A DNA stretch of 64,000 bases from Candidatus Omnitrophota bacterium. GTDB taxonomy: Bacteria > Omnitrophota > Gorgyraeia > Aquiviventales > Aquiviventaceae. The notes under the pieces were generated by a model. It was not told where the DNA came from, did not search any database, and saw nothing but the letters and a program-made list of their open reading frames with translations. Location of the stretch: contig JACPAY010000006.1 in the NCBI GenBank assembly GCA_016180575.1, positions 10,165-74,164 of the forward strand, in the 5' to 3' direction. The translations under genes were made by a program, and so were the position numbers. Shown here piece by piece: positions 825 to 61,157 of this stretch (within the stretch, counting starts at the first letter, position 1; every line of letters starts with the position of its first letter).

Positions 825-849
825 AAAAAAGGTACCGGTACCTTTTTTT
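825..849. repeat. AT-clamped palindrome A6-GGTACCGGTACC-T7 (REP-like family 1)
   Basis: Perfect palindrome filling the 29-nt lspA-lgt spacer. On the coding strand its T-tract ends 1 nt before the lgt ATG. Confidence 0.85.
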
Positions 850-4838: not shown

Positions 4839-4851
4839 GGCGTCCTCCTTC

Positions 4852-4890
4852 CGGTATCAGATACCGTTACCCGATTGGTATCTGATACCG
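4852..4890. repeat. hairpin repeat CGGTATCAGATACCG / GGTATCTGATACCG (family 2)
   Basis: Inverted arms separated by ~10 nt. The right arm supplies the last codons (..SRYQIPIG) and lies beside the proC stop. The same arm sequence recurs at 59601-59650. Confidence 0.85.
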
Positions 4891-6446: not shown

Positions 6447-6489
6447 GCCGGGTACTCTAACACAGCGACTTGCGAGGGTCAACGACTGG

Positions 6490-6539
6490 GAAAAGTACCG
6501 GGTACTTCTCAAAGCAGAAAAAGTACCGCGTACTTTTTC
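6490..6539. repeat. REP doublet (two AAAAGTAC-NNN-GTACTTTT hairpins)
   Basis: GAAAAGTACCGGGTACTTCTC (6490-6510) and GAAAAAGTACCGCGTACTTTTTC (6517-6539), about 140 nt upstream of the RAYT gene. Confidence 0.85.
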
Positions 6540-6678
6540 TGGTGCGGGAGTCGGGTCTGGTATTATACAATAAGTTGGTTTCGGGTCTCCCTTCCGTACC
6601 ACGCTCCCATCAGACCCTCCGTTGTCGCTGCTGCCCAAAGTAGCCGGTATTTTTGGGTTGATGAAAGGGGGGGTTGGA

Positions 6679-7374
6679 ATGCCACGGCGCCATCGAGACT
6701 GGCTTCCAGGAGGCATCTACCATATCACTGTGCGAGGGAATAATCGTCAAGCTATTTTCCTCGACGACATCGACTACCAGCAATACCTCCTGGAACTTCG
6801 TCGCAGTCGGGACGAATACCCCTACCGACTTTTGGCGTTCGCGTTGATGCCGAATCACGTGCACCTGGTCATGGAGGCCTTGCCGGATGCCTGCCTCTCT
6901 GACGTCATGCATCAGGTGGGTAAGAGCTACACGCGCTACTTCAACGGACAGCACGATCGCGTCGGCCATTTGTATCAGGGCCGCTTCTACAGCAACCTGG
7001 TCAATCGAGAATCTTATCTGCTCGAGGTCACCCGTTACGTCCACCTCAATCCATTTCGAGCAAGCCTTGTGCGCCGACCTGCCGAGTACCTCTGGAGCAG
7101 CTATCGCACCTACCTTGGGCTGGAGCGTGATCTGCTGGACCTCGTGAGCCCTCAACGAATTTTGGAGTTGTTCGGCACTACGTTTGCCGAACAGATTGAG
7201 CGATACCGAAGCTTTGTCGAGCAGCTTGTAACCGAGGAGGAGAAGGCGCGGGCGTGGCTACGGAAGTTGTACCGCGAGAAGCTGATCCCCCCACAACGCT
7301 GGCTCTTTCCTCGACCATCACCTCAAAAAGTACCGGGTACTTTTTCCGCTTTGGGAAGTACCCGGTACTTTTAG
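6679..7374 (+). CDS. REP-associated tyrosine transposase (RAYT; IS200-like Y1/HUH transposase)
   Basis: HUH motif MPNHVHLVM and catalytic Tyr context TRYVHLNP. ATG at 6679. The C-terminal 17 codons run through the downstream REP doublet. The only clear plus-strand gene in the window. Confidence 0.8.
   Translation: MPRRHRDWLPGGIYHITVRGNNRQAIFLDDIDYQQYLLELRRSRDEYPYRLLAFALMPNHVHLVMEALPDACLSDVMHQVGKSYTRYFNGQHDRVGHLYQGRFYSNLVNRESYLLEVTRYVHLNPFRASLVRRPAEYLWSSYRTYLGLERDLLDLVSPQRILELFGTTFAEQIERYRSFVEQLVTEEEKARAWLRKLYREKLIPPQRWLFPRPSPQKVPGTFSALGSTRYF
7324..7374. repeat. REP doublet (inverted pair)
   Basis: CAAAAAGTACCGGGTACTTTTTC (7324-7346) and GGAAGTACCCGGTACTTTTAG (7354-7374). The loop is CGG in one and CCG in the other, i.e. 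opposite orientation. Overlaps the RAYT and ftsA stop codons. Confidence 0.85.
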
Positions 7375-8507
7375 AAATACTCGGTGAGGATGGTGCGGGT
7401 GCGGTCGATCAACCGGTTGAAGAGATGCGCGGAGCGAAGTGCTGTGCGCCCATCGCCCCGGGTCGCCAGCTCCAGGAGGCCGATGGCGGCGCTCAGGCCC
7501 ACCTGGCGGCCGAGGTCCGCCGCTTGGCTCATGCGCGCGCTGCGCCCCACCGACGTGGGGATGCCGACGGCCCGCTCCACCCACTCGGCGAAGCCGTCAA
7601 GCAAGGCGCCCCGTCCGGTCACGAGGACCGCGTCCGGCCGCGGGCCCTCCTGGAGGAGCTGCTCAAGCGCCGGCTTGAGCAGGCCCCAGTGCTGCTCGAC
7701 GAGGGTGCGCACCGCCGGCTTGCGGCAGGCGGCGCCCTCCAGGCTCCAGGCCAGCGCCTGCTCCATCGTCGCCTTCAGCTCATTCGCGATGGCGGACGCG
7801 AGCTTGAGGCCGCCCCAGGGGAGGACGTGGGCCGCGTGCAGCGCGCCTTCGACGAAGAGCCCAAGGTCGGTCGTCAGACCGCCGACGTCCATCACGACGA
7901 CGCGCTGGTGTCGGAGCTCCTCGTCCGCCAGGCCGGCCAGCGCCGCGGGGAGCGTGTAGGTGATTCGGGACACCTCGAGGCCCGCGGACTCCACCGCCTG
8001 AATCAGCGTGCGGCGGGCCGCCATCGGGATGGTGATCACGTGGACCGTGCCGAGCAGCCGGGTCGCGGACAGGCCCCGCGGGTCGCGCACCCCGGTGAAG
8101 CCGTTCCCGTCGCAGCCGAGCCGCTCGATGAGGAGCGGGTCCCGGTCGACTCCCAGCACCTGATGGAGGGCGCTCGCATGCAGGCGCTCGAGATCCTGCG
8201 CCCGCACGGGGACCGGCTCATCGCCCAGCGCCACCGCCACGCGCGCCCGCTCGCTCGCCAGCGCCGGGTGGCTCGCGGTGACGAGCGCGCGGTCCATCTC
8301 CGCCTGCACCGCGGTCGCCTCCAGGGCCTGCTCGATCGTCCGGCTGACGAGCAGCGGGTCGCCGAGCCAGACCTCGGAGAGCGCGGGGTACGGGACGAGG
8401 CTCGTGCCCAGGAGCTCGAAGCCCGCGGCGTGCTCATGCGGCAGGCCGATCGCGCAGGCGACTTTCGTGGAGCCGATGTCCAAGGCGATGAGCGGGCGGG
8501 CGGTCAT
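7371..8507 (-). CDS. ftsA: cell division protein FtsA
   Basis: 378 aa actin-like ATPase (LIALDIGSTKVACAIG, VVVMDVGGLTTD). Follows ftsQ. Confidence 0.9.
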   Translation of the reverse strand: MTARPLIALDIGSTKVACAIGLPHEHAAGFELLGTSLVPYPALSEVWLGDPLLVSRTIEQALEATAVQAEMDRALVTASHPALASERARVAVALGDEPVPVRAQDLERLHASALHQVLGVDRDPLLIERLGCDGNGFTGVRDPRGLSATRLLGTVHVITIPMAARRTLIQAVESAGLEVSRITYTLPAALAGLADEELRHQRVVVMDVGGLTTDLGLFVEGALHAAHVLPWGGLKLASAIANELKATMEQALAWSLEGAACRKPAVRTLVEQHWGLLKPALEQLLQEGPRPDAVLVTGRGALLDGFAEWVERAVGIPTSVGRSARMSQAADLGRQVGLSAAIGLLELATRGDGRTALRSAHLFNRLIDRTRTILTEYF

Positions 8508-9331
8508 CAGGTGCGGGGGTGGATCACCGGCTCCTGAAACCGCACGTCGATGTAGCCGACGTCAACGGGATGCCGGGCGATCACCCTCAACGCCGCCTGC
8601 AGCCGCGAAAGGTGGGCGCTCAGTTCGGCCTCCGAGCCGCAGCGCACCTCGGTGTCCCCATCGAGGAGGAACCGGATCTGCTGCGGGTCCGACACGTTCA
8701 GCTCCTTGAGGCGCCGCGCGATCGCCGGCGCTTCGCGGCGCAGCGACACCGCGACGCGCAGGGCGAGCTTGAGCCGCTCATCGGCGTTCTCCCGTCCCGC
8801 CCGCAGCGCGGCGGTCCCGGCCCCGAATCCGACCACGCGGAGGAGGCTGTCGGCGGGCTCGGCGCGGCCATCCGGGAGGATGAACCCGTCGCGGTCCACG
8901 GGATACCAGCGGCCTGCCTGCGCCGCGGACGCGGCAGGCAGGTCCAGGCGCACCTGCGCGACCGGCAGGCGCGGCACAAGCTCCAACCGAAGCGTGTCGG
9001 GCAGCCGCCGCACCACGCGGACCTGCTTCATGCCCGGCTGCTGCCGCGTGACCTCATCAGCGAGGAGGCGCAGATCCAGCGTGAGCAGGTTCTTCCCCAT
9101 GAGCGACTCCGTCACCCGGAGGGAGGAGTCCGCGGGAAGCTCCACGTGCGCGACGCGGAAGATGTCGGCGCGCTGCGCGTACTGGCTCATCCCCCACAGG
9201 CCGGCTGCCAGCCCGCTGACCGCGAGGAACGGCCCCGGATGCGTCAGCGCCCAGCGCGCCGCCGTCCAGACCGCGCGGCCCGCGCTCGGGAAGAGCCCGA
9301 TGATCCGCCGCCTGCGCCGTCGTTTCGCCAT
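8507..9331 (-). CDS. ftsQ: cell division protein FtsQ
   Basis: 274 aa. Basic N-terminus, one TM helix, POTRA-like region (FRVAHVEL...). Position between ddl and ftsA. Confidence 0.8.
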   Translation of the reverse strand: MAKRRRRRRIIGLFPSAGRAVWTAARWALTHPGPFLAVSGLAAGLWGMSQYAQRADIFRVAHVELPADSSLRVTESLMGKNLLTLDLRLLADEVTRQQPGMKQVRVVRRLPDTLRLELVPRLPVAQVRLDLPAASAAQAGRWYPVDRDGFILPDGRAEPADSLLRVVGFGAGTAALRAGRENADERLKLALRVAVSLRREAPAIARRLKELNVSDPQQIRFLLDGDTEVRCGSEAELSAHLSRLQAALRVIARHPVDVGYIDVRFQEPVIHPRT

Positions 9332-9335
9332 GCCC

Positions 9336-10295
9336 CTACCGCGAAGCGGCCGCGTGGGGGACCCCGCGCGCCGCCATCAGGACGAGCTGCTCGCACAGCT
9401 CATCGTAGAAAAGCTTGACGCAGGCCGCCGCCTTCGGCAGGAGGCTGGTCGGGGTCAGCCCCGGAATCGTGTTGACCTCGAGGACGACGGGGACGCCGTC
9501 GGGGCGCAGGATGAAGTCTGTGCGCGAGAGGTGCCGGCAGCCCAGCGCCCGATGGGCCGCAAGGCCCGCCGCCTGGACCGACGCGGCGGCCTCCGGCGGA
9601 AGCGGCGCCGGCACAAGATACTCGGTCGCGCCGGGGGTGTACTTGGCGGTGTAGTCGAAGAAGGGGTGGGTGGGACGGACCTCGATGACGGGCAGCGGAT
9701 CCTCGCCGAGCACGCCTACGGTGACCTCGCGCCCCGCCACGAATTCCTCCACCAGGATCGCCGGCCCATACCGGCCCGCCTCGGCGAGCGCGGCCGGCAG
9801 CTGCTCTTCCCTGCCGACGATGGACACCCCGAGGCTCGACCCTTGGCTGACCGGCTTCACGACAAGGGGGTAGGCGCATCGAATCAGGCGGACCGGCTGC
9901 GCTGAGCCGTCGAGGAGTTCCCAGCGCGGGACCGCCAGGCCCGCCGCGGCGAACCGTTTCCGCGAGGCCACCTTGTCGATCCCCAGGCGGCTGGCGCGGG
10001 CGGTCGAACCGGTGTAGGGGACGCGGAGCTCCTCGCAGAGCGACTGGATGGTCCCGTCCTCTCCGAACGGCCCGTGCAGGGCGAGGAACGCCACCTCGGC
10101 GCCGCAGGCCCGCAGCGCGTGCCGGGCCGCCTCGCAGGCCTCGTCGGCGGTGGACGCCTTGGGGATCACGATCGGCTCGACCGGCCAGCCGCGGCGCGTC
10201 AGCGCCTCGACGACGCCCTGGCCGCTCTTCAGCGACACCTCGTGCTCGCCCGAGGGTCCGCCCATCAGCACCGCGACCTTCAGCGAACCGCGCAT
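9336..10295 (-). CDS. ddl: D-alanine--D-alanine ligase
   Basis: 319 aa ATP-grasp protein (VAVLMGGPSGEHEVSL, LHGPFGEDGTIQ, LEVNTIPGLT). Confidence 0.9.
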   Translation of the reverse strand: MRGSLKVAVLMGGPSGEHEVSLKSGQGVVEALTRRGWPVEPIVIPKASTADEACEAARHALRACGAEVAFLALHGPFGEDGTIQSLCEELRVPYTGSTARASRLGIDKVASRKRFAAAGLAVPRWELLDGSAQPVRLIRCAYPLVVKPVSQGSSLGVSIVGREEQLPAALAEAGRYGPAILVEEFVAGREVTVGVLGEDPLPVIEVRPTHPFFDYTAKYTPGATEYLVPAPLPPEAAASVQAAGLAAHRALGCRHLSRTDFILRPDGVPVVLEVNTIPGLTPTSLLPKAAACVKLFYDELCEQLVLMAARGVPHAAASR

Positions 10296-11197
10296 CAGCC
10301 GAGCCGCTCGCCGATCATCCGGACCTCCGGCTCCAGGGTGACGTGGAAGACCTGCCGGACGCGCCGCTGGATGTGCTCCATGAGCGAGAGGACGTCATCG
10401 CAGGTCGCCCGGCCGAGGTTCACGATGAAGTTGGCGTGCCGCGAGGACACCTGCGCATCCCCGATGCGCGCGCCCTTCAGGCCGGCCTGGTCGATGAGGC
10501 GCCCTGCGCCTGTGCCGGGCGGGTTCTTGAAGGCGCAGCCCGCCGACGGCAGCCGGACCTCCTGCGTGCTGTTCCGGTAGGTCAGCGTCTGGCGGATGCG
10601 CTCGTAGGCCTCGGCCGGCGGCACCTTCGGGAACTGCAGCACCACCTCCGTGATGATGCCGGGCGCAAGCGCCGTGTACCGGTAGCTGAACCGCAGCCGC
10701 TCCCGGGGGACCTGCCGCACCGTCCCGTCGGGGGCGACCAGGCTGAGCTGCCGGATGAACCGTCCGATCCCCTGCGCGTTCATGGCCACCGCCCCGCCGA
10801 GGTGGCCGGGCAGCCCCGCGAGCGTCTCCAGGTCGCCCCAGCCGTGCCGCGCGGCGAGATACACGAGCCGCTGCGTCAAGAGCGAGGCGCCGCAGACGAG
10901 CGTGGCCGTCGGGGAGTCGGGGTGGCTCACATCCTGCACCGTGCGGAACCCGCGGCCCAGGTGGACGACGAGGCCGCGGATGCCGCGGTCCGCGGCGAGG
11001 GTGTTGGTCCCGCCCCCCACCACGGACACCGGCAGGCCCCGGACTGAGGCCTCCCGGAGCACCTCGACCAGCTCCTCCACCGTCGCGGGCTCGGCGAACC
11101 ACTCCGCCGGGCCCCCGATGCGGAAGCTCGTGTGGTCAGCCAGCGATTCGTGCCGGCGTACGCAAGCGTGCGGCCACGTCATGGCACAGCTCTCCAA
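10295..11197 (-). CDS. murB: UDP-N-acetylenolpyruvoylglucosamine reductase
   Basis: 300 aa with an FAD-binding domain (FRIGGPAEWF, VVGGGTNTL) and a MurB C-terminal domain. The start may be the internal ATG at 11182. Confidence 0.9.
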   Translation of the reverse strand: MESCAMTWPHACVRRHESLADHTSFRIGGPAEWFAEPATVEELVEVLREASVRGLPVSVVGGGTNTLAADRGIRGLVVHLGRGFRTVQDVSHPDSPTATLVCGASLLTQRLVYLAARHGWGDLETLAGLPGHLGGAVAMNAQGIGRFIRQLSLVAPDGTVRQVPRERLRFSYRYTALAPGIITEVVLQFPKVPPAEAYERIRQTLTYRNSTQEVRLPSAGCAFKNPPGTGAGRLIDQAGLKGARIGDAQVSSRHANFIVNLGRATCDDVLSLMEHIQRRVRQVFHVTLEPEVRMIGERLG

Positions 11198-12527
11198 TGT
11201 CTCCCGCTCCGAGGAAGAAGATCGTGTCGCCGGAACGGGCGATCCGCGTGACGAACACGGGCAGCTCCTGCTTCGAGACGTAGCGGACGCACGGGTGGCC
11301 GTGGGCCTTGATGAGGCCGGCCAGCCGCTCGCCGGAAATCCCCGGGATGGGGGATTCGAACGCCGGGTAGATGTCCGTCACGATGACCCCGTCGGCCCGG
11401 TCGAAGCACGCGGTGAGCTCCCGCTCGAGCGACTGCGTGCGGGAAAACCGGTGCGGCTGAAACACCACCACGCGATGGCGCTCCGGCAGCGCGTCTGCGG
11501 CGAGCGTCGCCTGGATCTCGGAGGGGTGGTGCGCGTAGTCCTCCACGAACCAGATGTCGCCCGGCAGCCGCACGACCTGGAAGCGGCGCCCCGTGCCCTG
11601 GAACCGCCGCAGCGATTCCCGGATGGTGACGAGCGGCAGCTCCAGGGTGAGCCCCAGGCTGATGACGGCCAGCGCGTTGAGCACGTTGTGCCGCCCCGGC
11701 ACCTGGAGGGCGAACGTCCCCAGCGATCGGCCGCGGAACGCCGCCCGGAACCGGCTGCCGAACCCGTGCAGCTCGACATGAGTCGCCGTCACCTCGGCGC
11801 CCGGCCCGAAGCCATAGCTCACCTGCGAGGGATGGGAGAGCCGCTCCCGGACGACCGGGTCATCGGCGCAGCGGATCAGCGTCCCGCCCGGCTGCAGGCG
11901 GCCGACGAACTGCTCAAACGCCTCGACCAGCCGCGCGAACGTCCCATAGTAGTTCAGGTGCTCGCGGTCGATGTTCGTGACGATCGCGATGTCGGGGGCG
12001 AGGTGCAGGAACGACCCGTCCGATTCATCGCTTTCCGCGACGAGGTACGCGCCGGCGCCCGAGCGGGCATTGGTGCCGAGCGAGAGCACGATCCCGCCGA
12101 CGACGACGGTGGGATCCCACCCGGCCTGGATCAGCAGCTGGGAGGCCATGCCGGAGGTGGTCGTCTTCCCGTGGGCGCCGGCCACCGCCACCAGGCGCCG
12201 CTCGGCGGCAAGCGCCGCCAGCAGCTCGCCGCGCGTGATGGTGCAAAGCCCCGCCGCGCGCGCCTCGAGCAGCTCAGGCTCCTGCCCCGATATGGCGGAG
12301 CTGTGGACGACGAGGTCGAACCCTCCGCCCACGTGCTCGACCGCGTGGCCCGCCAAGACGGTCGCGCCGCTCCGCTGGAGCCGCTCGATCGCGCCGTTTC
12401 GCTTCGCATCGCATCCCGACACCGCGCAGCCGCGCTCGAGGCAGATCGCGGCAAGGCCGCTCATCCCGATCCCGCCGATGCCGAGGAAGTGGAGGCGCAT
12501 GCCTGGGGTGATGCGCGGGAGGCTCAT
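11136..12527 (-). CDS. murC: UDP-N-acetylmuramate--L-alanine ligase
   Basis: 463 aa Mur ligase (HFLGIGGIGMSGLA, AGAHGKTTTS). Confidence 0.9.
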   Translation of the reverse strand: MSLPRITPGMRLHFLGIGGIGMSGLAAICLERGCAVSGCDAKRNGAIERLQRSGATVLAGHAVEHVGGGFDLVVHSSAISGQEPELLEARAAGLCTITRGELLAALAAERRLVAVAGAHGKTTTSGMASQLLIQAGWDPTVVVGGIVLSLGTNARSGAGAYLVAESDESDGSFLHLAPDIAIVTNIDREHLNYYGTFARLVEAFEQFVGRLQPGGTLIRCADDPVVRERLSHPSQVSYGFGPGAEVTATHVELHGFGSRFRAAFRGRSLGTFALQVPGRHNVLNALAVISLGLTLELPLVTIRESLRRFQGTGRRFQVVRLPGDIWFVEDYAHHPSEIQATLAADALPERHRVVVFQPHRFSRTQSLERELTACFDRADGVIVTDIYPAFESPIPGISGERLAGLIKAHGHPCVRYVSKQELPVFVTRIARSGDTIFFLGAGDIGELCHDVAARLRTPARIAG

Positions 12528-14763: not shown

Positions 14764-16080
14764 TCATGGAGCGGTCATGGTCCTCACGATGGCCTTGAAG
14801 GCCCTTCCCCTCTCCTCGAAGTCGCGGAACATGTCGAAGCTGGCGCAGGCGGGCGAGAAGAGGATGGTCGTGCCGGGGGCGGCGAGCTCCGCCGCCGTCC
14901 GGACCGCCTCCTCGAGCGTGCCGCGCTCCCTCACGATGGTGGAGCCGTTCAGCAGCGGGCGCAGCCGCGCCCGCACCTCCCCGATGAGCACGATGCCTTT
15001 CACGCGCTCCTCATGGAGCCGCGCCGCCAGCCCGGAGAAGTCCAGTCCCTTGTCGCGCCCCCCGACGATCACCACGATCTGGCCGGGGGTCTGCGACAGC
15101 GCGTAGAGGGTGCTCTCGGGCGTCGTGGATTTGGAGTCGTTGATGAAGTGGAGCCCCCGAAGGGTGGCCACGCGCTCCAGCCGGTGCTCGAGGCCGGGGA
15201 AGGCCCGGAGCACCTGCCACGCCAGCGGGTCGGCAATCCCCGAGAGCCGCGCGACCTGCAAGACCGCCTGGGCGTTGTCGGTCAGCGCCCGCCGCGTTTC
15301 CGGCGCGAGGCGAAACGCCGGGGGGTTCGACCCGCCGTCGCCGAACCAGATGCGTTGGGCGTGCAGCCGCTCGCCGAGCGCCGCGATGCGGGGGTCGGAG
15401 CCATTGAGCACCGCCCAGTCCGCCGGGGTCTGGCGCGTGAAGAGCCGCGCCTTCGCCGCCAGGTAGGCGGAGGGGTCGGGATGGCGGTCCAGGTGGTTCA
15501 TCCCGATGTTCAGGAGGACGCCGACCCTCGGCCGGAACCGCTCGCAGCCCAGGAGCTGGAAGGAGCTGACCTCGACGACGGCCACCGCATCGGACGCCAA
15601 GCGGTCGAGGACGGAGGCAAACGGCGTGCCGATGTTGCCGCAGGCGACGGCCGGCCGGCCGGCGGCGCGCAGCACCTCCGCGATGAGCGACACCGTGGTG
15701 CTCTTGCCGTTGGTGCCGGTCACGGCGACGATCGGCGACCGGCAAAAATGGAAGGCGAGCTCGATCTCGCTGATGACGGGGACGCCGCGCTCCTGGGCCC
15801 ATCGGAGCGGGGACGCCGTCTCCGGGACGCCGGGGCTGGCGACCAGCAGGTCCGCGCCTTCCAGCGCCTCACGCGAATGTGCGCCGAGCTCGACCCGCTC
15901 GGCGCCCAGCCCAAGCAGCGCGGCCTGCGCGGCCCGGAGGTCATCGCTCTCGCGGGCATCGGTCGCCTGCACCCGCGCGCCGACGCGGCAGAGCAGGCGC
16001 GCGGCGGCCAGACCGCTGCGGCCGAGGCCCACCACCCCGACGCGGCGGCCGGACCAGGAACGGCCGAACACGTCGCTCAT
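14764..16080 (-). CDS. murD: UDP-N-acetylmuramoylalanine--D-glutamate ligase
   Basis: Start ATG at 16080 overlaps the mraY stop (ATGA). MSDVFGRSWSGRRVGVVGLGRSG..., VTGTNGKSTT. The ORF-track extension to 17016 is a shadow over mraY. Confidence 0.9.
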   Translation of the reverse strand: MSDVFGRSWSGRRVGVVGLGRSGLAAARLLCRVGARVQATDARESDDLRAAQAALLGLGAERVELGAHSREALEGADLLVASPGVPETASPLRWAQERGVPVISEIELAFHFCRSPIVAVTGTNGKSTTVSLIAEVLRAAGRPAVACGNIGTPFASVLDRLASDAVAVVEVSSFQLLGCERFRPRVGVLLNIGMNHLDRHPDPSAYLAAKARLFTRQTPADWAVLNGSDPRIAALGERLHAQRIWFGDGGSNPPAFRLAPETRRALTDNAQAVLQVARLSGIADPLAWQVLRAFPGLEHRLERVATLRGLHFINDSKSTTPESTLYALSQTPGQIVVIVGGRDKGLDFSGLAARLHEERVKGIVLIGEVRARLRPLLNGSTIVRERGTLEEAVRTAAELAAPGTTILFSPACASFDMFRDFEERGRAFKAIVRTMTAP

Positions 16081-27505: not shown

Positions 27506-30874
<3,369 letters not shown>

Positions 30875-34679: not shown

Positions 34680-35357
34680 TTATTGCGCCCGGGTGTAGCG
34701 GATCTCCATTGACTTAAATTCGCGGCCTTCCGGGGTGCGGGAGTAGCTCTCGTAGGTGGTGTGGTCCGAGTCCGACACCGTCCATGCCGTCCGGTACCAC
34801 CGGTGCGTCTCACCGGTGACGGGGCAGCTGAAACTCCCCTCGTCGGCGAGCGTCTTGGTCGAGGCGTCGAACTGGCCGGTGCCCGTCATCATTCCGGTCA
34901 TCATGTTGTCGAACCAGACCGTCTGATACTCCTTGCGGATATTGTCGTAGCCGATGAAGCCAGTGCCCTCAAATGGCGGGTGGCCTTCCTCCATCGGTTG
35001 GCCATTGACCTCTTGCTTCAGGAAGCGGCCGCCGAAGATCAGCGTGTTGACGGCGGTCCCCGTCATGGACTCGGGCGCCTCATCGGGGGACATCCAGAAC
35101 TGCGCCGCGTAGCCCCAGGTGCCGGCGAGCGGCTCAAGCGCCTTGTGGCCTTCGCTTGGGCTGCCGAACTTCTGCATCGCCTCCATCATCGCCTGCTTCG
35201 CATCCGGCACCGCCGGCTTGGCGGTCGTCCCCTGCTCCGCCTGCGCCAGTCCGGTGCCCATCGCAAGCATCCACGCGCCTGCAACCACTGACCATCCCGC
35301 TGTTCGCATCTGCCGTCTCCTTGTGCTGTGCTGCGCCATCATAGACGTTACAACCAA
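34680..35357 (-). CDS. DUF1579-family secreted protein
   Basis: 225-aa ORF with a signal peptide. Matches my recollection of DUF1579 (FGGRFLKQEVNG, GFIGYDNIRKEYQTVWFDNM). The start is probably the ATG near 35342. Confidence 0.65.
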   Translation of the reverse strand: MVVTSMMAQHSTRRRQMRTAGWSVVAGAWMLAMGTGLAQAEQGTTAKPAVPDAKQAMMEAMQKFGSPSEGHKALEPLAGTWGYAAQFWMSPDEAPESMTGTAVNTLIFGGRFLKQEVNGQPMEEGHPPFEGTGFIGYDNIRKEYQTVWFDNMMTGMMTGTGQFDASTKTLADEGSFSCPVTGETHRWYRTAWTVSDSDHTTYESYSRTPEGREFKSMEIRYTRAQ

Positions 35358-35803
35358 TACTGACGATACTCGGGGCTCAAGAGCTGACGAACGAGCTTTT
35401 CCTCTAAGAACTCAGGGAGTTCTTCAATACTGCGCAAATCATACTCATCGTTTTCAACATCATATAACCACAATCGGTAAGCATCCCTTGGTTCGCCTTC
35501 AACCGCGATGACTGCCCAAACACCACCGAAGCTATTGGGGGAGACACCGACCACAAGAAATTTCTTGGTGTACAGACCAATGAACTTTTCTCCGTCAAGA
35601 ACACCCAAGTGGCATTCAGGACATGTGTCATGAATACGAATCGTGCGATCAAAGTTTCTCCGAATCTCGGCAGGAATGGGTGTCGTGTAGATCTCTTGCA
35701 ACTCCGTGACCCCGTCACCAAAAGTTGAGGGACAACACGCAAGCAGCGCAACCAGCAATAATAGCTTGCGGGGTTGCAAGCGATACATGGCTTTTAATCG
35801 CAT
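35348..35803 (-). CDS. hypothetical lipoprotein (candidate immunity partner)
   Basis: 151 aa. Signal peptide with a lipobox-like LLAC(C). Lower GC. Overlaps the upstream transglycosylase gene by 10 nt. Confidence 0.5.
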   Translation of the reverse strand: MRLKAMYRLQPRKLLLLVALLACCPSTFGDGVTELQEIYTTPIPAEIRRNFDRTIRIHDTCPECHLGVLDGEKFIGLYTKKFLVVGVSPNSFGGVWAVIAVEGEPRDAYRLWLYDVENDEYDLRSIEELPEFLEEKLVRQLLSPEYRQYWL

Positions 35804-36492
35804 ATAAATACGGGCCTGTCGTCAATCGTCACCCAGTGCCCTTCCGTGCAGCGATATTCTCCTTTCCTTGGCGGTTCCTTGTGTTTGATGGTCTTGTCGG
35901 CCGGTGACTTTGCTGCGAATTCAGCTTGGTAGGAGAGAACGCGTTCAACGTATTGTCTGATCTCGTCGGCCTTAGATAGGCTGGTGTCCTCCGATTCAAG
36001 AAACTTTTCCACGTTCATCCATAAGATAGGATCTGTTCCGGCCTGCTTGGCGCGTTGTTGAGCATCAGCGATGCGCCTTGGGCCGCCGTTGTAAGCTGCG
36101 AGGGCGAACTTTTGCCGCTCTACGGCATTCTTTACACCAATAATCGTTTTTGCGTCTTCACTAAACCTGTTGTCAAGATCTTTGAGGTATCTTGCCGCCG
36201 CGGAAGAGGCGTACTCAATGTCAAACCGTTGATCGTTATTCTTCGAAGTGTTTAAACCGTACTCTCTCGCGGTATCCGGCTTGAAGTGAAAGTGGCCGGC
36301 GGGAACAGTGGAACCACGCTCTCTCAACATGGTACCGAAGCTGCTCTCACGCCCATACACAGCCTCGAGCGTATTTACCGTCAGGTCATCGTTCGCGTCA
36401 AAATACCTCGAGGCGCTTTCCAGCGCTTTGCGCACCCGAGGGGTTTCCCGCTCAAGCCATTGATCCACGTTGGACGGCTGTTTCTCTGCCAT
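35794..36492 (-). CDS. lytic transglycosylase (SLT-domain) without signal peptide
   Basis: 232 aa. Catalytic E-S context (YGRESSFG) and AYNGGP motif. No N-terminal signal. Lower GC than neighbours. Confidence 0.7.
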   Translation of the reverse strand: MAEKQPSNVDQWLERETPRVRKALESASRYFDANDDLTVNTLEAVYGRESSFGTMLRERGSTVPAGHFHFKPDTAREYGLNTSKNNDQRFDIEYASSAAARYLKDLDNRFSEDAKTIIGVKNAVERQKFALAAYNGGPRRIADAQQRAKQAGTDPILWMNVEKFLESEDTSLSKADEIRQYVERVLSYQAEFAAKSPADKTIKHKEPPRKGEYRCTEGHWVTIDDRPVFICD

Positions 36493-36523
36493 CCCTGGTT
36501 TCCCCTACCGCATCACGAAAGAA

Positions 36524-36600
36524 TGGTCGGGGCGCTGGGATTTGAACCCAGGACCTCCTGGTCCCGAACCAGGCGCTCTACCAAACTGAGCCACGCCCCG
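36524..36600 (-). tRNA. tRNA-Pro (anticodon CGG), CCA encoded
   Basis: Hand-folded cloverleaf. Acceptor CGGGGCG/CGCCCCG, D arm GCTC/GAGC, anticodon stem CCTGG/CCAGG with loop TTCGGGA, T arm CTGGG-TTCAAAT-CCCAG, then ACCA. Confidence 0.9.
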
Positions 36601-36611
36601 TTATCGCATAG

Positions 36612-36800
36612 CTATTGACGTATCAGGCGGTCGGCGGACACCCTCACGACCTTGCCGGCGCGCCAGAGGGCAACGGGTTGGCCGAGCCGTTTATGCTCTT
36701 CGAGGACCCGCCGGAAAGCCCGTCTCATGGCCTTTTCAGCCTTCACGGATAATGAGGCTCCGTTGCCCTTTTTGTTTTTGATAGCTATGACTACCCTCAC
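36612..36800 (-). CDS. small hypothetical protein, third gene of the mazEF unit
   Basis: GTG at 36800, 5 nt after the mazF stop. 62 aa ending ...AMRRAFRRVLEEHKRLGQPVALWRAGKVVRVSADRLIRQ. The ORF-track start (36860) overlaps mazF and was rejected. Confidence 0.4.
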   Translation of the reverse strand: MRVVIAIKNKKGNGASLSVKAEKAMRRAFRRVLEEHKRLGQPVALWRAGKVVRVSADRLIRQ

Positions 36801-36804
36801 TAAT

Positions 36805-37164
36805 TCAGAGGATCGCTGATTCAACGATGAGGGGTGCCAGTTTCCGCAGCACCTCAGCAAGTGTCACCGTTGGCGCCGCGCAACAAAAACGAGCTCTCCT
36901 CGCCTTCCAATCCAGACTCTTGACTTGGTCCGCTAACACGACTCCCGATACCTCTAACCCTTTAGGAATGGGCACCTCAAACGGATAGCCTTTGACTTGG
37001 GTCGTAATGGGACAAACGAGCGCAAGTCCAACCTTCTTATTGTATAGTTCTGGAGACAAGATCAGGGCGGGTCGATGGCCAGCCTGCTCATGCCCTGCTT
37101 GAGGGGTAAATATCAGCCACACAATATCGCCTCGCTTGGGGTAATACGGGCCAGACATTACCAC
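36805..37164 (-). CDS. mazF: MazF/PemK-family endoribonuclease toxin
   Basis: 119 aa (PKRGDIVWLIFTPQAGHEQAGHRPALILSP, VCPITT). Confidence 0.85.
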   Translation of the reverse strand: MVMSGPYYPKRGDIVWLIFTPQAGHEQAGHRPALILSPELYNKKVGLALVCPITTQVKGYPFEVPIPKGLEVSGVVLADQVKSLDWKARRARFCCAAPTVTLAEVLRKLAPLIVESAIL

Positions 37165-37415
37165 GCTTCCTGTCCCACCCGCCCTCCCCAGTCAAGTTCC
37201 GTGTGACGATTGCCCTTTGTCACCCCTCGGAGTAATTGCGTCAAGGTATAGTGCTGGCGCCGTGTTGGCTTCACTACGATCTTACCTGCGATCAGCGCAA
37301 TATCCACCACCGACCCCTGGCGGAGATGGATATCCCTTGCCACCGACCGGGGAATCCGCAAGGCCAGGCTATTGCCCCACTTTTGGACCATCGTGTTCAT
37401 GTCATTCCTCCTCAC
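37158..37415 (-). CDS. mazE: MazE/AbrB-type antitoxin
   Basis: SpoVT/AbrB fold signature (VQKWGNSLALRIPRSVA). Overlaps the mazF start by 7 nt. GTG at 37415, or an ATG 5 codons in. Confidence 0.8.
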   Translation of the reverse strand: MRRNDMNTMVQKWGNSLALRIPRSVARDIHLRQGSVVDIALIAGKIVVKPTRRQHYTLTQLLRGVTKGNRHTELDWGGRVGQEAW

Positions 37416-37424
37416 GTAGTGTAT

Positions 37425-42541: not shown

Positions 42542-42554
42542 GGGGTAGCTATGC

Positions 42555-43541: not shown

Positions 43542-43558
43542 ATGTTCATTTAATAGGC

Positions 43559-58387: not shown

Positions 58388-59601
58388 TGGACCCCCAATC
58401 CGATTTGAAAGACCGGCAGCAGCATCGCCAGCACGATCCCCAGCACCATCGTGCCGACGAGGAGCAGGAGGACGGGCTCCAGGATTGTCGTCAGCGTCCG
58501 CATCGTCCGGTCGAGCTCCCGCTCGTAGGCGGCGGCGACCTTCAGGAGGGCGGCGTCCACCGTCCCGGACTCCTCGCCGACCGCCACCATGTTGCTGACG
58601 AACACCGGGAACTTGCGCGTGGCGGCCAGCGCCGCCGCGAGGCTGGAGCCGTCGCGCACCGCGTCGTGGACCCGCCCGACCGCCGCGCGCAGCGTCACGT
58701 TGGCGAGGTTCTCGGCCACGACCTCGAGGGCCTGGAGGATGGGCACGCCCTGTCCGAGCAGGACCCCGAGGTTGCGCGCAAACCGCGCCGTCTCCACCTG
58801 GCGCACCAGGGCGCCGAGCGCGGGGATGCCGATGAGCGCGCGGTCGACCGCCGCCCGGCCGGCGGGGCTGGCGTGCCAGAGGCGCAGCGCCCAGGCCGCC
58901 GCGGTCCCGCCAAACAGCAGCGCCCACCACCACCGCGTCACCGCCCCGCTCACCGCCAAGAGGACCCGCGTCGGCAGCGGCAGCACCTGGCCGGTCTCGA
59001 GCAGGACGAGCGAGAGCTTCGGGATGACGTACGCCATCAGGAAGGCGGTCATCGCCACGGCGACGCCCAGCACGAAGAGCGGATAGGCCGAGGCGCTCGC
59101 GATGCGGCTGCGCAGCTCGGCATCGGATTCCCCCAGCTCGGCGAGCCGGTTCAGCGCCCGCTCAAGCCCCCCGCCCACCTCGCCGGCCCTGACCAGGCTG
59201 CGGTAGAGCGGCGGGAAGACGCGCGGGTGGTCGCCGAGGGCGTCGCTCAGCGGCCGGCCGTCGCGCACGGAGGCGGCGAGCGACTCGATGACTCGCCGCA
59301 GCGCCGCGTGCTCGGTCTGCTTGGCCAGGAGCGTCAGCGCGCTGAGGAGCGGCAGCCCGCCGCCCAGGAGGTCGGCGAGCTGGTGCGTGGTGTAGGCGAG
59401 GGTGCGGGAGGAAATCCGGCGGGGCAAGGTGCCCAGCGGCGAACCGGCCGGGGCGCCGACTTCCGCGATGGAGATGGGGAAGACCCCTTCACGGCCGAGC
59501 CGGCTGAGCGCCGACGCTTCGGTGTCGGCCTCGATCGTGCCTTCGCGGAGGTGCAGGGCGTGGTCCTTGGCTCGATACGCGAACCGCGGCATACCTCTCA
59601 T
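58384..59601 (-). CDS. gspF: type II secretion / type IV pilus platform protein GspF
   Basis: 405 aa, two T2SF repeats, three TM segments. Start is ATG at 59601 or 59592. Confidence 0.9.
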   Translation of the reverse strand: MRGMPRFAYRAKDHALHLREGTIEADTEASALSRLGREGVFPISIAEVGAPAGSPLGTLPRRISSRTLAYTTHQLADLLGGGLPLLSALTLLAKQTEHAALRRVIESLAASVRDGRPLSDALGDHPRVFPPLYRSLVRAGEVGGGLERALNRLAELGESDAELRSRIASASAYPLFVLGVAVAMTAFLMAYVIPKLSLVLLETGQVLPLPTRVLLAVSGAVTRWWWALLFGGTAAAWALRLWHASPAGRAAVDRALIGIPALGALVRQVETARFARNLGVLLGQGVPILQALEVVAENLANVTLRAAVGRVHDAVRDGSSLAAALAATRKFPVFVSNMVAVGEESGTVDAALLKVAAAYERELDRTMRTLTTILEPVLLLLVGTMVLGIVLAMLLPVFQIGLGVQ

Positions 59602-59650
59602 GGTATCAGATACCTACGATATGGGGAAGCGTTGTAGGTATCTGATACCA
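59601..59650. repeat. 16-bp perfect-stem hairpin (family 2: TGGTATCAGATACCTA)
   Basis: Arms 59601-59616 and 59635-59650 with an 18-nt loop. Fills the gspE-gspF spacer. The arm end coincides with the A of the gspF ATG. Confidence 0.9.
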
Positions 59651-59654
59651 TGCC

Positions 59655-61157
59655 TTACGTGACGCGGAGGACCTCTTGGGGGGTGGTGAGCCCCTGCACG
59701 ATCCTCTGCCACCCGTCCTGCCGGAGCGTCCGCATCCCGCCGAGGCGCTGGGCGGCCTGCGCGATCTCGTGGGACGAGGAGCGCTTGAGGACGAGCTCCT
59801 GGATCGGCTCGCTGACGAGCAGGAACTCGTAGATGGCGGTCCGGCCCTTGTAGCCGGTGCCCTTGCAGGCGGGACAGCCGCGCCCGTACTGGAGCGCGCG
59901 CGGCAGCTCGGCGACGCCGAACTCCTCCAGCAGCCCGGGCTCCGGGGGACGCTCCTCCCGGCAGGCGAGGCAGACGAGGCGCACGAGGCGCTGCGCGACG
60001 AAGCACAGGACCGAGGAGGCGACAAGATACGGCTCGATGCCCATGTCCAGGAGCCGCGTCACCCCGCCCGCCGCGTTGTTCGTGTGGAGCGTGGAGAAGA
60101 CGAGGTGCCCGGTCAGGGCGCTGCGGATGGTGATCTCGGCGGTCTCCGGGTCCCGGACCTCGCCCACCATCATGATGTCGGGGTCGTGGCGGAGCATCGA
60201 CCGCAGCCCCTGGGCGAAGGAGAAGCCGATCTTCGTGTGGACCTGGAGCTGCGTGATGCCGGCGAGCTGGTACTCGATGGGGTCCTCGATCGTCAGGATC
60301 TTCACGTTCGGGGCGTTGAGCTTCGAGAGGCAGGCATAGAGCGTCGTCGTCTTGCCGGAGCCGGTGGGGCCGGTCACGAAGATGATGCCGTGCGGCTTCT
60401 GGATGAGCTGGACGAGCTGCTCCCGGTGGTCCGGGCCAAGGCCCAGCTGCTCGAGGCTGAAGAGCATCTGGGAGGACAGCAGCCGGATCTCCACCGCCTC
60501 GCCGAAGCTCGTCGGCAGCACCGAGATGCGCAGGTCCAGGTCCTCCCCGTCGAGGCCGACCTTGATGCGGCCGTCCTGCGGCAGCCGCCGCTCCGCGATG
60601 TCGAGCTGCGCCATCACCTTGATCCGGGAGACGATCGCCTGGTGGAGCCGCACGAGGTCCGCCGGGGTCGAGATCTCGTACATGACCCCGTCGATGCGCT
60701 GGCGCACCCGGAGCGTCTGCCCGAACGGCTCGATGTGGATGTCGGTCGCGCGGTCGCGCGCCGCGGAGAGGATGAGCTGGTTGACGAACGAGATGACGGA
60801 GGCGTCGTCGGGCTTGGCGGTCAGGTCCTCCGTCGCGGCCGAGGCCGGGGCGGCGGCCTCGTGCAATCCGGTGTCGAGGAGCCGCTCCACCGCCGAGGCC
60901 CCGATCCCGTAGTGCCGCTGGATGGCCTCGCGGATCTCGACGGGGTCGGCGAGCGCGGGCCGGACCTCGCAGCCGAGGAGCAACTTCAGCTCATCGAGCG
61001 TCTGCACGTCGAAGGGGTCGGCGACGGCGATCTGCAGCGCGCCGTCCGCGAAGGCGACCGGCATGAGCTGGTAGTGGCTGGCGAACCTCGGCGACACCTT
61101 GGCCAGCACCTCGGGAGGGATCCGCGCGCCGGCCAGGCGCACCCGCTCAATTGACAT
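59655..61157 (-). CDS. gspE: type II secretion / type IV pilus assembly ATPase GspE
   Basis: 500 aa. T2SSE N-domain, Walker A (GPTGSGKTTT), Asp/His boxes, tetracysteine motif (CLAC...CPAC). Confidence 0.9.
   Translation of the reverse strand: MSIERVRLAGARIPPEVLAKVSPRFASHYQLMPVAFADGALQIAVADPFDVQTLDELKLLLGCEVRPALADPVEIREAIQRHYGIGASAVERLLDTGLHEAAAPASAATEDLTAKPDDASVISFVNQLILSAARDRATDIHIEPFGQTLRVRQRIDGVMYEISTPADLVRLHQAIVSRIKVMAQLDIAERRLPQDGRIKVGLDGEDLDLRISVLPTSFGEAVEIRLLSSQMLFSLEQLGLGPDHREQLVQLIQKPHGIIFVTGPTGSGKTTTLYACLSKLNAPNVKILTIEDPIEYQLAGITQLQVHTKIGFSFAQGLRSMLRHDPDIMMVGEVRDPETAEITIRSALTGHLVFSTLHTNNAAGGVTRLLDMGIEPYLVASSVLCFVAQRLVRLVCLACREERPPEPGLLEEFGVAELPRALQYGRGCPACKGTGYKGRTAIYEFLLVSEPIQELVLKRSSSHEIAQAAQRLGGMRTLRQDGWQRIVQGLTTPQEVLRVT

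What the first reader, a model, noticed from the sequence alone, without database searches (positions are those of the whole stretch)
6490..7374. REPtron-like unit: RAYT (Y1/HUH transposase) flanked on both sides by doublets of the same short hairpin
The only clear plus-strand gene encodes an IS200-like Y1 transposase, with HUH motif MPNHVHLVM and Tyr context TRYVHLNP.

Two AAAAGTAC-NNN-GTACTTTT hairpins precede it (6490-6539). Two more follow it (7324-7374) and run into its last codons. The downstream pair is in inverted orientation (loop CGG versus CCG).

Related AT-clamped ACCGGT-centred palindromes are scattered through intergenic spacers in this window. This is the arrangement described for RAYT/REP (REPIN) systems, but the REP sequence here is very different from the enterobacterial and pseudomonad types.
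Basis: partly seen in the sequence, partly recalled or inferred. Interest (0 to 1): 0.62.

Follow-up and report, generated by a model that had tools for sequence, protein, structure and literature searches.

The report
RAYT-type transposase gene between hairpin doublets
A single gene for a REP-associated (RAYT-type) tyrosine nuclease sits between pairs of its own short DNA hairpins in an uncultivated Omnitrophota genome; this is a real but already described kind of unit (REPtron/TIRtron), here in a new lineage with a new hairpin type.

Summary
ORF 6679-7374 (+) encodes a 231-aa HUH/Y1 protein (H60-V-H62, Y120). It passes NCBI's curated RAYT model (93 bits, cut-off 80) and fails the IS200 model. 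Its predicted fold best matches E. coli TnpA-REP bound to a REP hairpin (4ER8).

Four AAGTAC-NNN-GTACTT hairpins (none expected by chance) form two doublets with 28-bp spacing. The doublets are 48/54 inverted repeats of each other, and the downstream one supplies the last 18 codons.

Six distinct relatives (60-84% identity) carry the same doublets with locus-specific compensated stems: GTACC/GGTAC, GTGCC/GGCAC, GTGTC/GACAC.

By its motifs the protein belongs to TnpA-Y1 subclass 2.1 (Bertels Group 1; the TIRYT/TIRtron of Di Nocera 2013). It lacks that group's C-terminal DnaA-like HTH.

The ~885-bp block fills the ftsA-yggS spacer here and in one distant relative. It is absent from the three other relatives examined, including the two closest.

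No further exact copy lies in the 64 kb. Related hairpins do: two GGTATC-type doublets and one singlet. A sister genome has a doublet inserted in murD.

Verdict: a real REPtron/TIRtron-like unit and a new member of a known kind. Genome-wide hairpin abundance was not testable.

The parts
6486..7373 (.). Whole unit: the block that fills the ftsA-yggS spacer (left doublet, leader, gene, right doublet); about 55% GC against about 72% in the flanks
   Evidence: Composition profile. Relatives L211, L212 and L213 lack the block; their homology to the window stops at the ftsA stop codon on one side and at TCGTTGACC (the yggS -35) on the other.
6491..6509 (.). Hairpin 1 of the upstream doublet (AAAAGTAC CGG GTACTTCT)
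   Evidence: model R1 30.2 bits; DNA fold.
6515..6541 (.). Hairpin 2 of the upstream doublet (12-bp perfect stem, loop CGC)
6491..6544 (.). Left inverted repeat, which is the upstream doublet with its spacer
   Evidence: 48/54 identical to the reverse complement of 7319-7372.
6566..6571 (+). Candidate -10 element (TACAAT) of the gene's own promoter, just inside the upstream doublet. This is an inference.
   Evidence: TACAAT, TATAAT, TATGAT or TATACT sits at the same place in L203, L210, L204, L209 and L206. The consensus scan did not call it.
6583..6623 (+). Conserved non-coding block (GGGTCT...CCGTACCACGCTCCC...AGACCC) of unknown role
   Evidence: Conserved in six of seven aligned upstream regions.
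6637..6654 (.). Decayed hairpin (AAAGTAGCCGGTATTTTT), a relic of the proximal doublet that L203, L205 and L209 still carry just before the start codon
   Evidence: It no longer folds better than shuffled sequence (z -1.1).
6679..7374 (+). RAYT-type HUH/Y1 nuclease gene, 231 aa. HUH codons are at 6856-6864 (H60, H62); the catalytic Tyr120 codon is at 7036-7038.
7325..7345 (.). Hairpin 3 (AAAAAGTACC G GGTACTTTTT), inside the coding region (KVPGTF)
7353..7372 (.). Hairpin 4 (GGGAAGTAC CCG GTACTTTT). It encodes the last residues and abuts both stop codons.
7319..7372 (.). Right inverted repeat, which is the downstream doublet. As a single strand it folds into one long REPIN-like hairpin.
   Evidence: Fold -18.5 kcal/mol, z -6.6.
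7371..7373 (-). ftsA stop codon (TAA), overlapping the A/T foot of hairpin 4 and the stop codon of the RAYT gene (7372-7374)
   Evidence: L203 has the same junction.
6454..6482 (-). Promoter-like site for yggS-proC (TTGACC-17-TAGAGT) that abuts the unit. This is host sequence, not part of the unit.
   Evidence: Conserved in L203, L211, L212 and L213.
825..848 (.). Possibly related dispersed singlet (AAAAAAGGTACCGGTACCTTTTTT). It fills the spacer between two genes.
   Evidence: Model R1 21.3 bits, E 0.005.
4847..4889 (.). Possibly related dispersed doublet GGTATCAGATACC / GGTATCTGATACC. Its stem differs from the gene-flanking stem by one compensated pair.
   Evidence: A homologous copy is present in L212 and absent in L211.
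59596..59655 (.). Second GGTATC-type doublet, a 20-bp REPIN-like hairpin
   Evidence: Model R1 E about 0.05 for each unit. The exact 13-mer occurs 4 times. Fold z -7.1.

Best explanation
This is a REPtron/TIRtron. It consists of a single gene for a RAYT-type HUH/Y1 single-strand DNA nuclease-ligase and the hairpin doublets that are its cognate DNA sites. The protein belongs to TnpA-Y1 subclass 2.1, in a short branch that has lost the C-terminal DnaA-like HTH.

Shown:
- the protein class and fold;
- the intact HUH and Tyr motifs;
- strong purifying selection on the gene;
- the anatomy of the doublets;
- their conservation around orthologues, with compensated stem changes;
- the fact that the unit is present or absent as one block bounded by its outer hairpins.

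Inferred, by analogy with E. coli TnpA-REP (4ER8) and IS608:
- The hairpins extrude in single-stranded DNA.
- The protein reads the invariant AAGT...ACTT foot and the variable inner three base pairs.
- Tyr120 cuts next to the hairpin with metal held by H60 and H62, possibly in the conserved spacer CCGCTTTG.
- The cut strands are rejoined, which moves hairpin doublets (REPINs) in trans to other spacers.

The doublets next to the gene also lie on its likely promoter, just before its start codon and across its 3' end. They could therefore give autoregulation and serve as a shared terminator with ftsA. That too is inferred.
For: Protein:
- Pfam Y1_Tnp.
- NCBIfam REP_Tyr_transpos 93.2 bits against a cut-off of 80. 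All 41 clade members match that model.
- The motifs NHVH, YQ, YVHLNP and WSSY fit subclass 2.1 of Quentin 2018.
- 4ER8 is the best match by sequence (E 1.3e-6) and by fold (E 1.2e-9, TM 0.77 normalised to the target). The model has pLDDT 90.5.
- dN/dS is 0.08 against the syntenic copy in L203, with dS 1.10. The neighbours yggS and proC give dS 1.04 and 0.71.

DNA:
- Four hairpins against none expected.
- The two doublets are inverted repeats at 48/54.
- Fold z-scores are -4.9 and -6.6.
- L203, L204, L205, L206, L209 and L210 carry the same doublets with a 19-28 bp period, up to three per gene. The stems are GTACC/GGTAC, GTGCC/GGCAC or GTGTC/GACAC, uniform within each locus.
- Three base pairs change on both sides, and GT..AC is invariant.
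- The hairpin also shows up as conserved C-terminal tails (KVPGTF, KVPRTF, VSDT) in many homologues.

Mobility of doublets:
- L081 encodes a 231-aa HTH-less homologue at 34% identity. It has flanking doublets plus two more, 3 and 5 kb away.
- L211, whose housekeeping proteins are 85-92% identical to the window's, has an AAAAAGTGACAGTCACTTTT doublet inserted at the murD start. The window and L212 lack it.
- The window holds a related singlet and two GGTATC-type doublets.
Against: - The exact flanking motif has no other copy in the 64 kb. The relatives' motifs have none within 16.6 and 14.9 kb of their genes. Abundance, the hallmark of REP systems, is therefore unproven here. Subclass 2.1 is reported to lack REPs in general.
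- The dispersed GGTATC doublets differ from the gene-flanking hairpin. They may belong to another RAYT.
- The unit is absent from the two closest relatives.
- GC3 of the gene is 0.64 against 0.83-0.95 for neighbours, as expected for a mobile or transferred gene.
- The covariation count is partly circular. Units were picked for perfect inner stems, and symmetric covariation would also arise from a dimeric double-strand DNA binder.
- There are no biochemical data.
Confidence: 0.7

Rival explanations
1. The ~885-bp block is an autonomous insertion sequence. The Y1 transposase uses the two terminal doublets as its own ends and moves the whole unit. The hairpins are IS ends, not a dispersed REP family.
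For: - The block is present or absent as a whole, with edges at the outer hairpins.
- Its terminal inverted repeats match at 48/54.
- GC is 55% and GC3 0.64 in a 72% GC context.
- It sits in different genomic contexts in different lineages: ftsA-yggS, or upstream of T2SSE genes.
- No exact dispersed copies occur in 64 kb.
- In two unrelated contexts the outer hairpin abuts a TAA stop codon, which could reflect a target preference.
Against: - There is only one copy in 64 kb.
- The IS200 model scores below its cut-off, and the Y motif is YVHLNP rather than the Y---Q of IS200.
- There is no tnpB.
- The copy in L203 is syntenic, has dS like its neighbours and dN/dS 0.08. This pattern is unlike a short-lived IS.
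- Doublets without a gene exist in L081 and L211.
- The orientation of the upstream doublet relative to the downstream one is not conserved: inverted in the window, direct in L205 and L209.
Confidence: 0.2
2. The palindromes are ordinary regulatory DNA or RNA elements: bidirectional terminators, or operator sites for a dimeric double-strand DNA binder. The Y1 protein is a domesticated gene that no longer moves any DNA.
For: - Each unit has an A-tract, a stem and a T-tract, like a bidirectional terminator. The consensus scan calls three terminator-like sites in and near the doublets.
- The downstream doublet lies between the convergent RAYT gene and ftsA.
- The upstream doublet touches the yggS promoter and the gene's own likely promoter.
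- Symmetric covariation fits a dimeric binder.
- Similar A/T-clamped palindromes fill other short spacers.
Against: - A terminator is not needed between the divergent yggS and RAYT genes, nor just before the start codon, where L203, L205 and L209 keep a doublet.
- Stems change in step with the protein clade and are uniform across all 4-7 units of a locus.
- The catalytic HUH and Tyr motifs are invariant across 41 homologues, and dN/dS is 0.08.
- There is insertion polymorphism of a doublet inside murD.
Confidence: 0.1

Closest known systems
TIRtron / TIRYT (Di Nocera, De Gregorio and Rocco 2013, PMC3733652), i.e. TnpA-Y1 subclass 2.1 of Quentin et al. 2018 (PMC6006769) and Bertels Group 1 RAYT
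   Same: - The key motifs are the same: NHVH, [FY]Q, Y[IV]HLNP, SS.
- Identity over residues 1-189 to a 316-aa member is 44%.
- The gene is bounded by inverted repeats, and the right one overlaps the 3' end of the ORF.
- Di Nocera's Figure 9 already lists 'double palindromic TIRs', and TIR repeats organised as dimers.
   Different: - It lacks the C-terminal Bac_DnaA_C/HTH domain that the described subclass 2.1 TIRYTs carry.
- The repeats are two perfect short hairpins with an AAAAGT...ACTTTT foot, not the GGGGWSAS repeat that I found around most of the 80 distant relatives.
- There are up to three doublets per gene, built on a conserved 28-bp module.
- The host phylum is Omnitrophota.
E. coli TnpA-REP with REP/BIME (REPtron; Nunvar 2010, Ton-Hoang 2012, Messing 2012; PDB 4ER8)
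   Same: - It is the best structural and sequence match.
- It passes the NCBIfam RAYT equivalog.
- The gene is flanked by its hairpins in inverted orientation.
   Different: - Identity is about 19%.
- The hairpin has no GTAG tetranucleotide; the invariant bases are GT..AC inside an A/T-clamped stem.
- The protein has about 60 extra helical residues and a hairpin-encoded disordered tail.
- Abundance of the hairpin in the genome is not shown.
Pseudomonas REPIN-RAYT systems (Bertels and Rainey 2011, PMC3116915; Groups 2 and 3)
   Same: - Units come as inverted doublets that fold into one long hairpin.
- The copy in L203 is syntenic and under purifying selection.
- Gene-less doublets occur at polymorphic sites in relatives.
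   Different: - It belongs to a different RAYT group (Group 1).
- The gene is missing from the closest relatives.
- Its GC3 is atypical.
- Density of the exact motif in 64 kb is zero outside the locus.
IS200/IS605 family (IS608, ISDra2)
   Same: - It has the HUH/Y1 fold.
- Hairpins lie at both ends of a roughly 0.9-kb block.
- No target-site duplication is visible at the junctions (sequence reading).
   Different: - It scores below the IS200 cut-off.
- The Y motif is not Y---Q.
- The ends are repeated doublets that are near-identical inverted repeats, not distinct LE/RE subterminal hairpins.
- There is no tnpB.
- There is a single copy with dN/dS 0.08.

Membership tests
RAYT (REP-associated tyrosine transposase, TnpA-REP) | HUH motif plus a single catalytic Tyr in a Y1 fold closer to TnpA-REP than to IS200 TnpA | tested here: met
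   H60-V-H62 and Y120 are present. NCBIfam REP_Tyr_transpos scores 93.2 against a cut-off of 80; IS200 scores 25.7 against 55. 4ER8 is the top hit by sequence and by fold.
RAYT (REP-associated tyrosine transposase, TnpA-REP) | Gene flanked on both sides by the same palindromic repeat, in inverted orientation | tested here: met
   Four hairpins in two doublets; 48/54 inverted identity. The same holds in six relatives.
RAYT (REP-associated tyrosine transposase, TnpA-REP) | Flanking repeat (16-mer) over-represented genome-wide, mostly extragenic | tested here: inconclusive
   Only 64 kb of the genome is available. It holds no extra exact copies, one related singlet and two related doublets. The genome collection scan was swamped by chance matches and did not return the source genome.
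RAYT (REP-associated tyrosine transposase, TnpA-REP) | Single copy, vertically inherited, housekeeping-like evolution | tested here: inconclusive
   One copy in the window. The L203 copy is syntenic, with dS like its neighbours and dN/dS 0.08. But the unit is absent from the closest relatives L211 and L212, and GC3 is atypical.
RAYT (REP-associated tyrosine transposase, TnpA-REP) | Protein binds and cleaves its REP in single-stranded DNA | not testable with these tools
   This needs biochemistry.
TIRYT / TIRtron (subclass 2.1, Bertels Group 1) | Subclass 2.1 key motifs (NHVH or NH[YF]H; W[EQ] or FQ; YIELNP or Y[IV]HLNP; SS) | tested here: met
   PNHVHLV, HLYQGRF (Y in place of F/W), YVHLNP and WSSY were read in the translation and compared with Table 1 of PMC6006769.
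TIRYT / TIRtron (subclass 2.1, Bertels Group 1) | Terminal inverted repeats bracket the gene, the 3' one overlapping the ORF end | tested here: met
   The same layout is seen in most of the 80 distant relatives.
TIRYT / TIRtron (subclass 2.1, Bertels Group 1) | GGGGWSAS motif in the repeat (the majority type, not universal) | tested here: not met
   The repeats read AAAAGTACCGGGTACTT. A similar string, GGGAGTCGGGTCT, lies inside the unit at 6547-6559; this is by eye only.
TIRYT / TIRtron (subclass 2.1, Bertels Group 1) | C-terminal HTH (Bac_DnaA_C, HTH_23 or HTH_28) | tested here: not met
   No such Pfam hit even at E up to 10 on residues 146-231, whereas P0083 has Bac_DnaA_C at residues 227-291. 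The alignment with P0083 ends at residue 189.
IS200/IS605 | TnpA matching the IS200 model; Y---Q motif | tested here: not met
   25.7 bits against a cut-off of 55. The motif is YVHLNP, against Y[IV]ENQ in Table 1 of PMC6006769.
IS200/IS605 | Several near-identical copies per genome; often tnpB alongside | tested here: inconclusive
   There is no second copy and no tnpB-like ORF next to it in the 64 kb. The rest of the genome was not seen.

The most novel reading that the evidence does not exclude
An HTH-less branch of subclass 2.1 RAYTs, a subclass reported to have no REPs, runs an active REPIN system in Omnitrophota and some other phyla. On this reading:
- Doublets of AAAAGT-N7-ACTTTT hairpins still move; a sister genome has an in-frame insertion in murD.
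- The gene block itself is gained or lost at the ftsA-yggS spacer.
- Hairpin specificity has shifted repeatedly through compensated swaps of the inner three base pairs.

This would give a natural series for working out how a Y1 nuclease reads its hairpin.
Probability: 0.35. Interest if true: 0.5.

Novelty: new member of a known kind. Interest (0 to 1): 0.35.

Why it matters
RAYT/REP systems are the best-studied case of a transposase kept by its host while it spreads short hairpins. Nearly all the work is on Proteobacteria. Subclass 2.1, the second largest Y1 subclass, is listed as having no REPs.

This locus and its relatives show a 2.1 branch with clear hairpin doublets. The stems co-vary with the protein, and the doublets are polymorphic between close genomes. 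That offers three things:
- material for specificity-swap experiments (GTACC, GTGCC, GTGTC and GTGAC stems);
- a check on whether TIRtrons behave like REPIN-RAYT systems;
- a practical caution for annotation, because the last 15-20 residues of these proteins are simply translated hairpin.

It does not change how these systems are understood.

Tried and rejected
- Genome-wide count. It did yield L008, L081 and L063, which hold homologues, by luck.
These proved useful for showing the family-wide GGGGTCAGGTCTT repeats. Close relatives were fetched one by one instead.
- Extending the window. A look-up of the NCBI protein P0001 found nothing on record. P0036 had no DNA.
- Short Logan contigs. Those spanning exactly 6450-7400 looked like a sign of a multi-context repeat. 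They run 25-40 bases into the unique flanks, so I read them as coverage loss in the GC-rich flanks. That is not proven.
- Restriction-site avoidance. GTAC is not depleted: 106 observed against 111 expected. Relatives use stems without GTAC.
- Known RNA families. Rfam gives only tRNA-Pro.
- A C-terminal domain. There is no Pfam hit, and the tail beyond residue 210 is predicted disordered.
- Terminator-only reading. Rejected because doublets also lie upstream of the gene and co-vary with the protein clade.
- Vertical inheritance as settled. Rejected after the empty sites were found in the closest relatives. Two losses and two same-site gains are equally parsimonious.
Full report
**1. What is in the sequence**

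The window has 68% GC and nearly all its genes lie on the minus strand. Between the start of a yggS-like gene (minus strand, upstream of proC) and the stop codon of ftsA (7371-7373, minus strand) lies a block of about 885 bp. The block has about 55% GC, against about 72% on either side.

The block holds one plus-strand ORF, 6679-7374, of 231 aa. Four copies of AAGTAC-NNN-GTACTT flank it, centred at 6500, 6528, 7335 and 7363. These are the only matches in 64 kb, and shuffles gave none. In both pairs the centres are 28 bp apart. 6491-6544 equals the reverse complement of 7319-7372 at 48 of 54 positions.

As single-stranded DNA the upstream pair folds into two hairpins (-14 kcal/mol, z -4.9). The downstream pair folds into one long hairpin (-18.5 kcal/mol, z -6.6). 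The downstream pair lies inside the ORF, so the last 18 codons are translated hairpin. A decayed fifth hairpin lies at 6637-6654.

**2. The protein**

- Pfam finds Y1_Tnp.
- The curated NCBIfam equivalog for REP-associated tyrosine transposases is passed (93.2 bits, cut-off 80). The IS200 model is not (25.7 bits, cut-off 55). All 41 clade members match the RAYT model.
- The best solved relative by sequence is E. coli TnpA-REP, 4ER8 (E 1.3e-6). That alignment places the HUH motif and Tyr120 at the corresponding positions.
- An AlphaFold model (pLDDT 90.5) has a confident core and helical extension to about residue 205, and a disordered tail over the hairpin-encoded residues.
- Its best fold match is again 4ER8 (E 1.2e-9). 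IS608, ISDra2 and IS200 transposases score about 1e-5.

The motifs NHVH, YQ, YVHLNP and WSSY are those of TnpA-Y1 subclass 2.1 in Quentin et al. 2018. That paper equates subclass 2.1 with Bertels' Group 1 and with the 'TIRYT' proteins of Di Nocera et al. 2013.

The protein is 44% identical over residues 1-189 to a 316-aa member, P0083. P0083 goes on to a Bac_DnaA_C helix-turn-helix; the window protein has no such domain.

**3. Relatives**

About 2,300 homologues exist. The source is a Candidatus Omnitrophica MAG, protein MBI2104505.1. I read the DNA around six distinct relatives at 60-84% identity (L203, L204, L205, L206, L209, L210). All have the same hairpin doublets:
- a distal upstream doublet;
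- often a second doublet just before the start codon;
- one doublet over the 3' end.

The two units of a doublet are usually mutually inverted: their centres are complementary. In most doublets of the window, L203, L204, L205 and L209 they are separated by a conserved spacer close to CCGCTTTGNG.

The inner stem is uniform within a locus but differs between loci: GTACC/GGTAC, GTGCC/GGCAC, GTGTC/GACAC. GT..AC is invariant. On 32 units, three pairs change on both sides with no unpaired cells. That count is partly circular, because I picked units with perfect inner stems. The uniformity within each locus is the stronger argument.

The hairpin also explains the odd conserved C-terminal tails of many homologues: KVPGTF, KVPRTF, VSDT.

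The 80 more distant relatives (37-49% identity, mostly 280-340 aa) are instead bracketed by 25-30-nt inverted repeats starting GGGGTCAGGTCTT. This is the GGGGWSAS repeat of the published TIRtrons.

**4. Is the unit fixed or mobile?**

L203 is collinear with the window across proC, yggS and the RAYT gene (71% nucleotide identity), and its outer hairpin meets an ftsA-like stop codon at the same junction. Against L203:

| Gene | dS | dN/dS |
|---|---|---|
| RAYT | 1.10 | 0.08 |
| yggS | 1.04 | 0.23 |
| proC | 0.71 | 0.30 |

. This looks like co-divergence under strong constraint.

However, three genomes found through FtsA lack the unit. Their housekeeping-protein identities to the window are 84-92% (L211), 83-89% (L212) and 60-76% (L213). 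Their ftsA-yggS spacers hold something else:
- L211: an unrelated 105-bp palindrome;
- L212: a DUF2442 gene;
- L213: another palindrome.

Homology to the window resumes exactly at the ftsA stop codon and at the yggS -35.

The window, L211 and L212 are about equidistant from one another, and L203 is an outgroup at about 70%. Two losses and two same-site gains are therefore equally parsimonious.

GC3 of the gene is 0.58-0.72 in all relatives, against 0.83-0.95 in their neighbours. I cannot explain this if the gene is old and vertically inherited.

The unit therefore behaves as one discrete indel block bounded by its outer hairpins. Whether it moves by itself is open.

**5. Are the hairpins dispersed?**

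The exact motif is not dispersed in these 64 kb. The relatives' own motifs have no further copies in the 16.6-kb locus L205 or the 14.9-kb locus L206.

A covariance model of the unit finds one further site at E 0.005, 825-848. It also finds two sites at E about 0.05 that form a doublet at 59596-59655. The same 13-mer, GGTATC(A/T)GATACC, forms a second doublet at 4853/4877. Both doublets fill short spacers and fold as long hairpins (z about -7). Their stem differs from the gene-flanking stem by one compensated pair. L212 keeps one of them at the homologous spacer and L211 does not.

L211 has a doublet, AAAAAGTGACAGTCACTTTT, in a roughly 60-bp in-frame insertion at the start of murD. The insertion is absent from the window and from L212.

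L081, a Rhodospirillaceae MAG, has a 231-aa HTH-less homologue with flanking GTACC doublets and two more doublets 3 and 5 kb away.

Gene-less doublets of this hairpin family therefore exist and are polymorphic. Their link to this particular gene is an inference.

**6. Mechanism**

I commit to a RAYT-type nuclease acting on its own hairpins in single-stranded DNA. This is by analogy with 4ER8 and the IS608 family, with the doublets as the mobile substrate (REPIN-like).

The gene-adjacent doublets may double as control elements:
- The upstream doublet ends about 25 bp before a conserved TACAAT-type -10.
- A second doublet, decayed here, sits before the ribosome-binding site.
- The third lies between the convergent RAYT gene and ftsA.

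The rivals are an autonomous IS moving as a whole (0.2) and purely regulatory palindromes around a domesticated protein (0.1).

**7. Comparison and novelty**

The arrangement is the one published as REPtron/TIRtron. Di Nocera et al. already noted TIRs that overlap the 3' end, 'double palindromic TIRs' and TIR repeats in dimers.

What differs here:
- the loss of the HTH;
- the hairpin type (A/T-clamped, GT..AC, no GTAG);
- the three-doublet layout on a 28-bp module;
- the host phylum;
- the clear compensated stem series, in a subclass that Quentin et al. list as lacking REPs.

I file it as a new member of a known kind, of moderate interest.

Noticed in passing
window 4847-4889 and 59596-59655: Two REPIN-like inverted doublets of the exact 13-mer GGTATC(A/T)GATACC lie in short spacers between co-directional genes. 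Each folds into a 14-20 bp hairpin. L212 has the first at the homologous proC-yggT spacer; L211 has a different palindrome there.
   Followed up: partly
window 825-848, 30039-30063, 30094-30118, 61184-61209, 63606-63625: A-tract/T-tract clamped palindromes centred on CCGG fill short intergenic spacers. 14 of the 33 runs of five or more A or T in the window lie in such palindromes, counting the gene-flanking hairpins. 30035-30122 folds as one long hairpin (z -6.6).
   Followed up: partly
window 37500-37575 (+), 44923-45004 (+), 53127-53211 (-), 63660-63737 (-): A GC-rich repeat of about 90 nt (GCGGGTCCTGCCGCGCCGCCACCCC...GGGGTCCCCGGCTC) occurs four times with a variable central hairpin. It matches no Rfam family. 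Two copies sit at the right edges of low-GC islands.
   Followed up: no
window 35000-37500 and 42500-45000: Two more low-GC islands, at 50-57% and 39-56% GC against about 70% around them. The first contains tRNA-Pro (36524-36600). They may be integrated foreign DNA.
   Followed up: no
window 6583-6623: A conserved non-coding block (GGGTCT..CCGTACCACGCTCCC..AGACCC) lies between the upstream doublet and the gene. It is kept in relatives down to 60% protein identity. It could be a 5'-UTR stem-loop or a DNA site.
   Followed up: partly
L211 2414-2481 (GCA_023247155.1, JAHFGZ010000012.1): A roughly 60-bp insertion at the start of murD carries a doublet of AAAAAGTGACAGTCACTTTT hairpins, in frame (MurD is 458 aa, against 442 aa in L212). 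It is absent at the homologous site of the window (16068-16077) and of L212.
   Followed up: yes
window 6486-7373 compared with L211 11138-11367, L212 11138-11670, L213 11138-11267: The ftsA-yggS spacer is a hot spot. Five related genomes hold four different fillers: the RAYT unit (twice), a 105-bp palindrome, a DUF2442 gene and another palindrome.
   Followed up: yes
window 7371-10295; L211, L212 and L213 around 8200-12000: The cell-wall/division cluster runs ddl-ftsQ-ftsA and then goes straight to yggS-proC-yggT. No ftsZ follows ftsA in any of the four genomes.
   Followed up: no
window 6679-7374; L203-L210 homologues: GC3 of the RAYT gene is 0.58-0.72 in every lineage, while neighbouring genes are at 0.83-0.95. 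This holds even though the window and L203 copies are syntenic and as diverged at synonymous sites as their neighbours.
   Followed up: partly
window 7371-7373; L203 about 2185; L210 about 766; L204 about 348: The outer hairpin of the unit starts at, or within a few bases of, a TAA stop codon of the neighbouring gene. This is seen in two unrelated genomic contexts: ftsA, and a large surface-protein gene ending ...IY*.
   Followed up: no
L029 and L109 (Candidatus Uhrbacteria), L068 and L108 (MAG nzgw370), L050 (Planctomycetota): Other genomes picked up by the motif scan carry several copies or doublets of AAAGTACC-N-GGTACTTT palindromes on different contigs. For example, CTGTGGATAAAAGTACCTGGTACTTTTATCCACAG occurs four times. 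No RAYT homologue lies within the 8 kb fetched.
   Followed up: no
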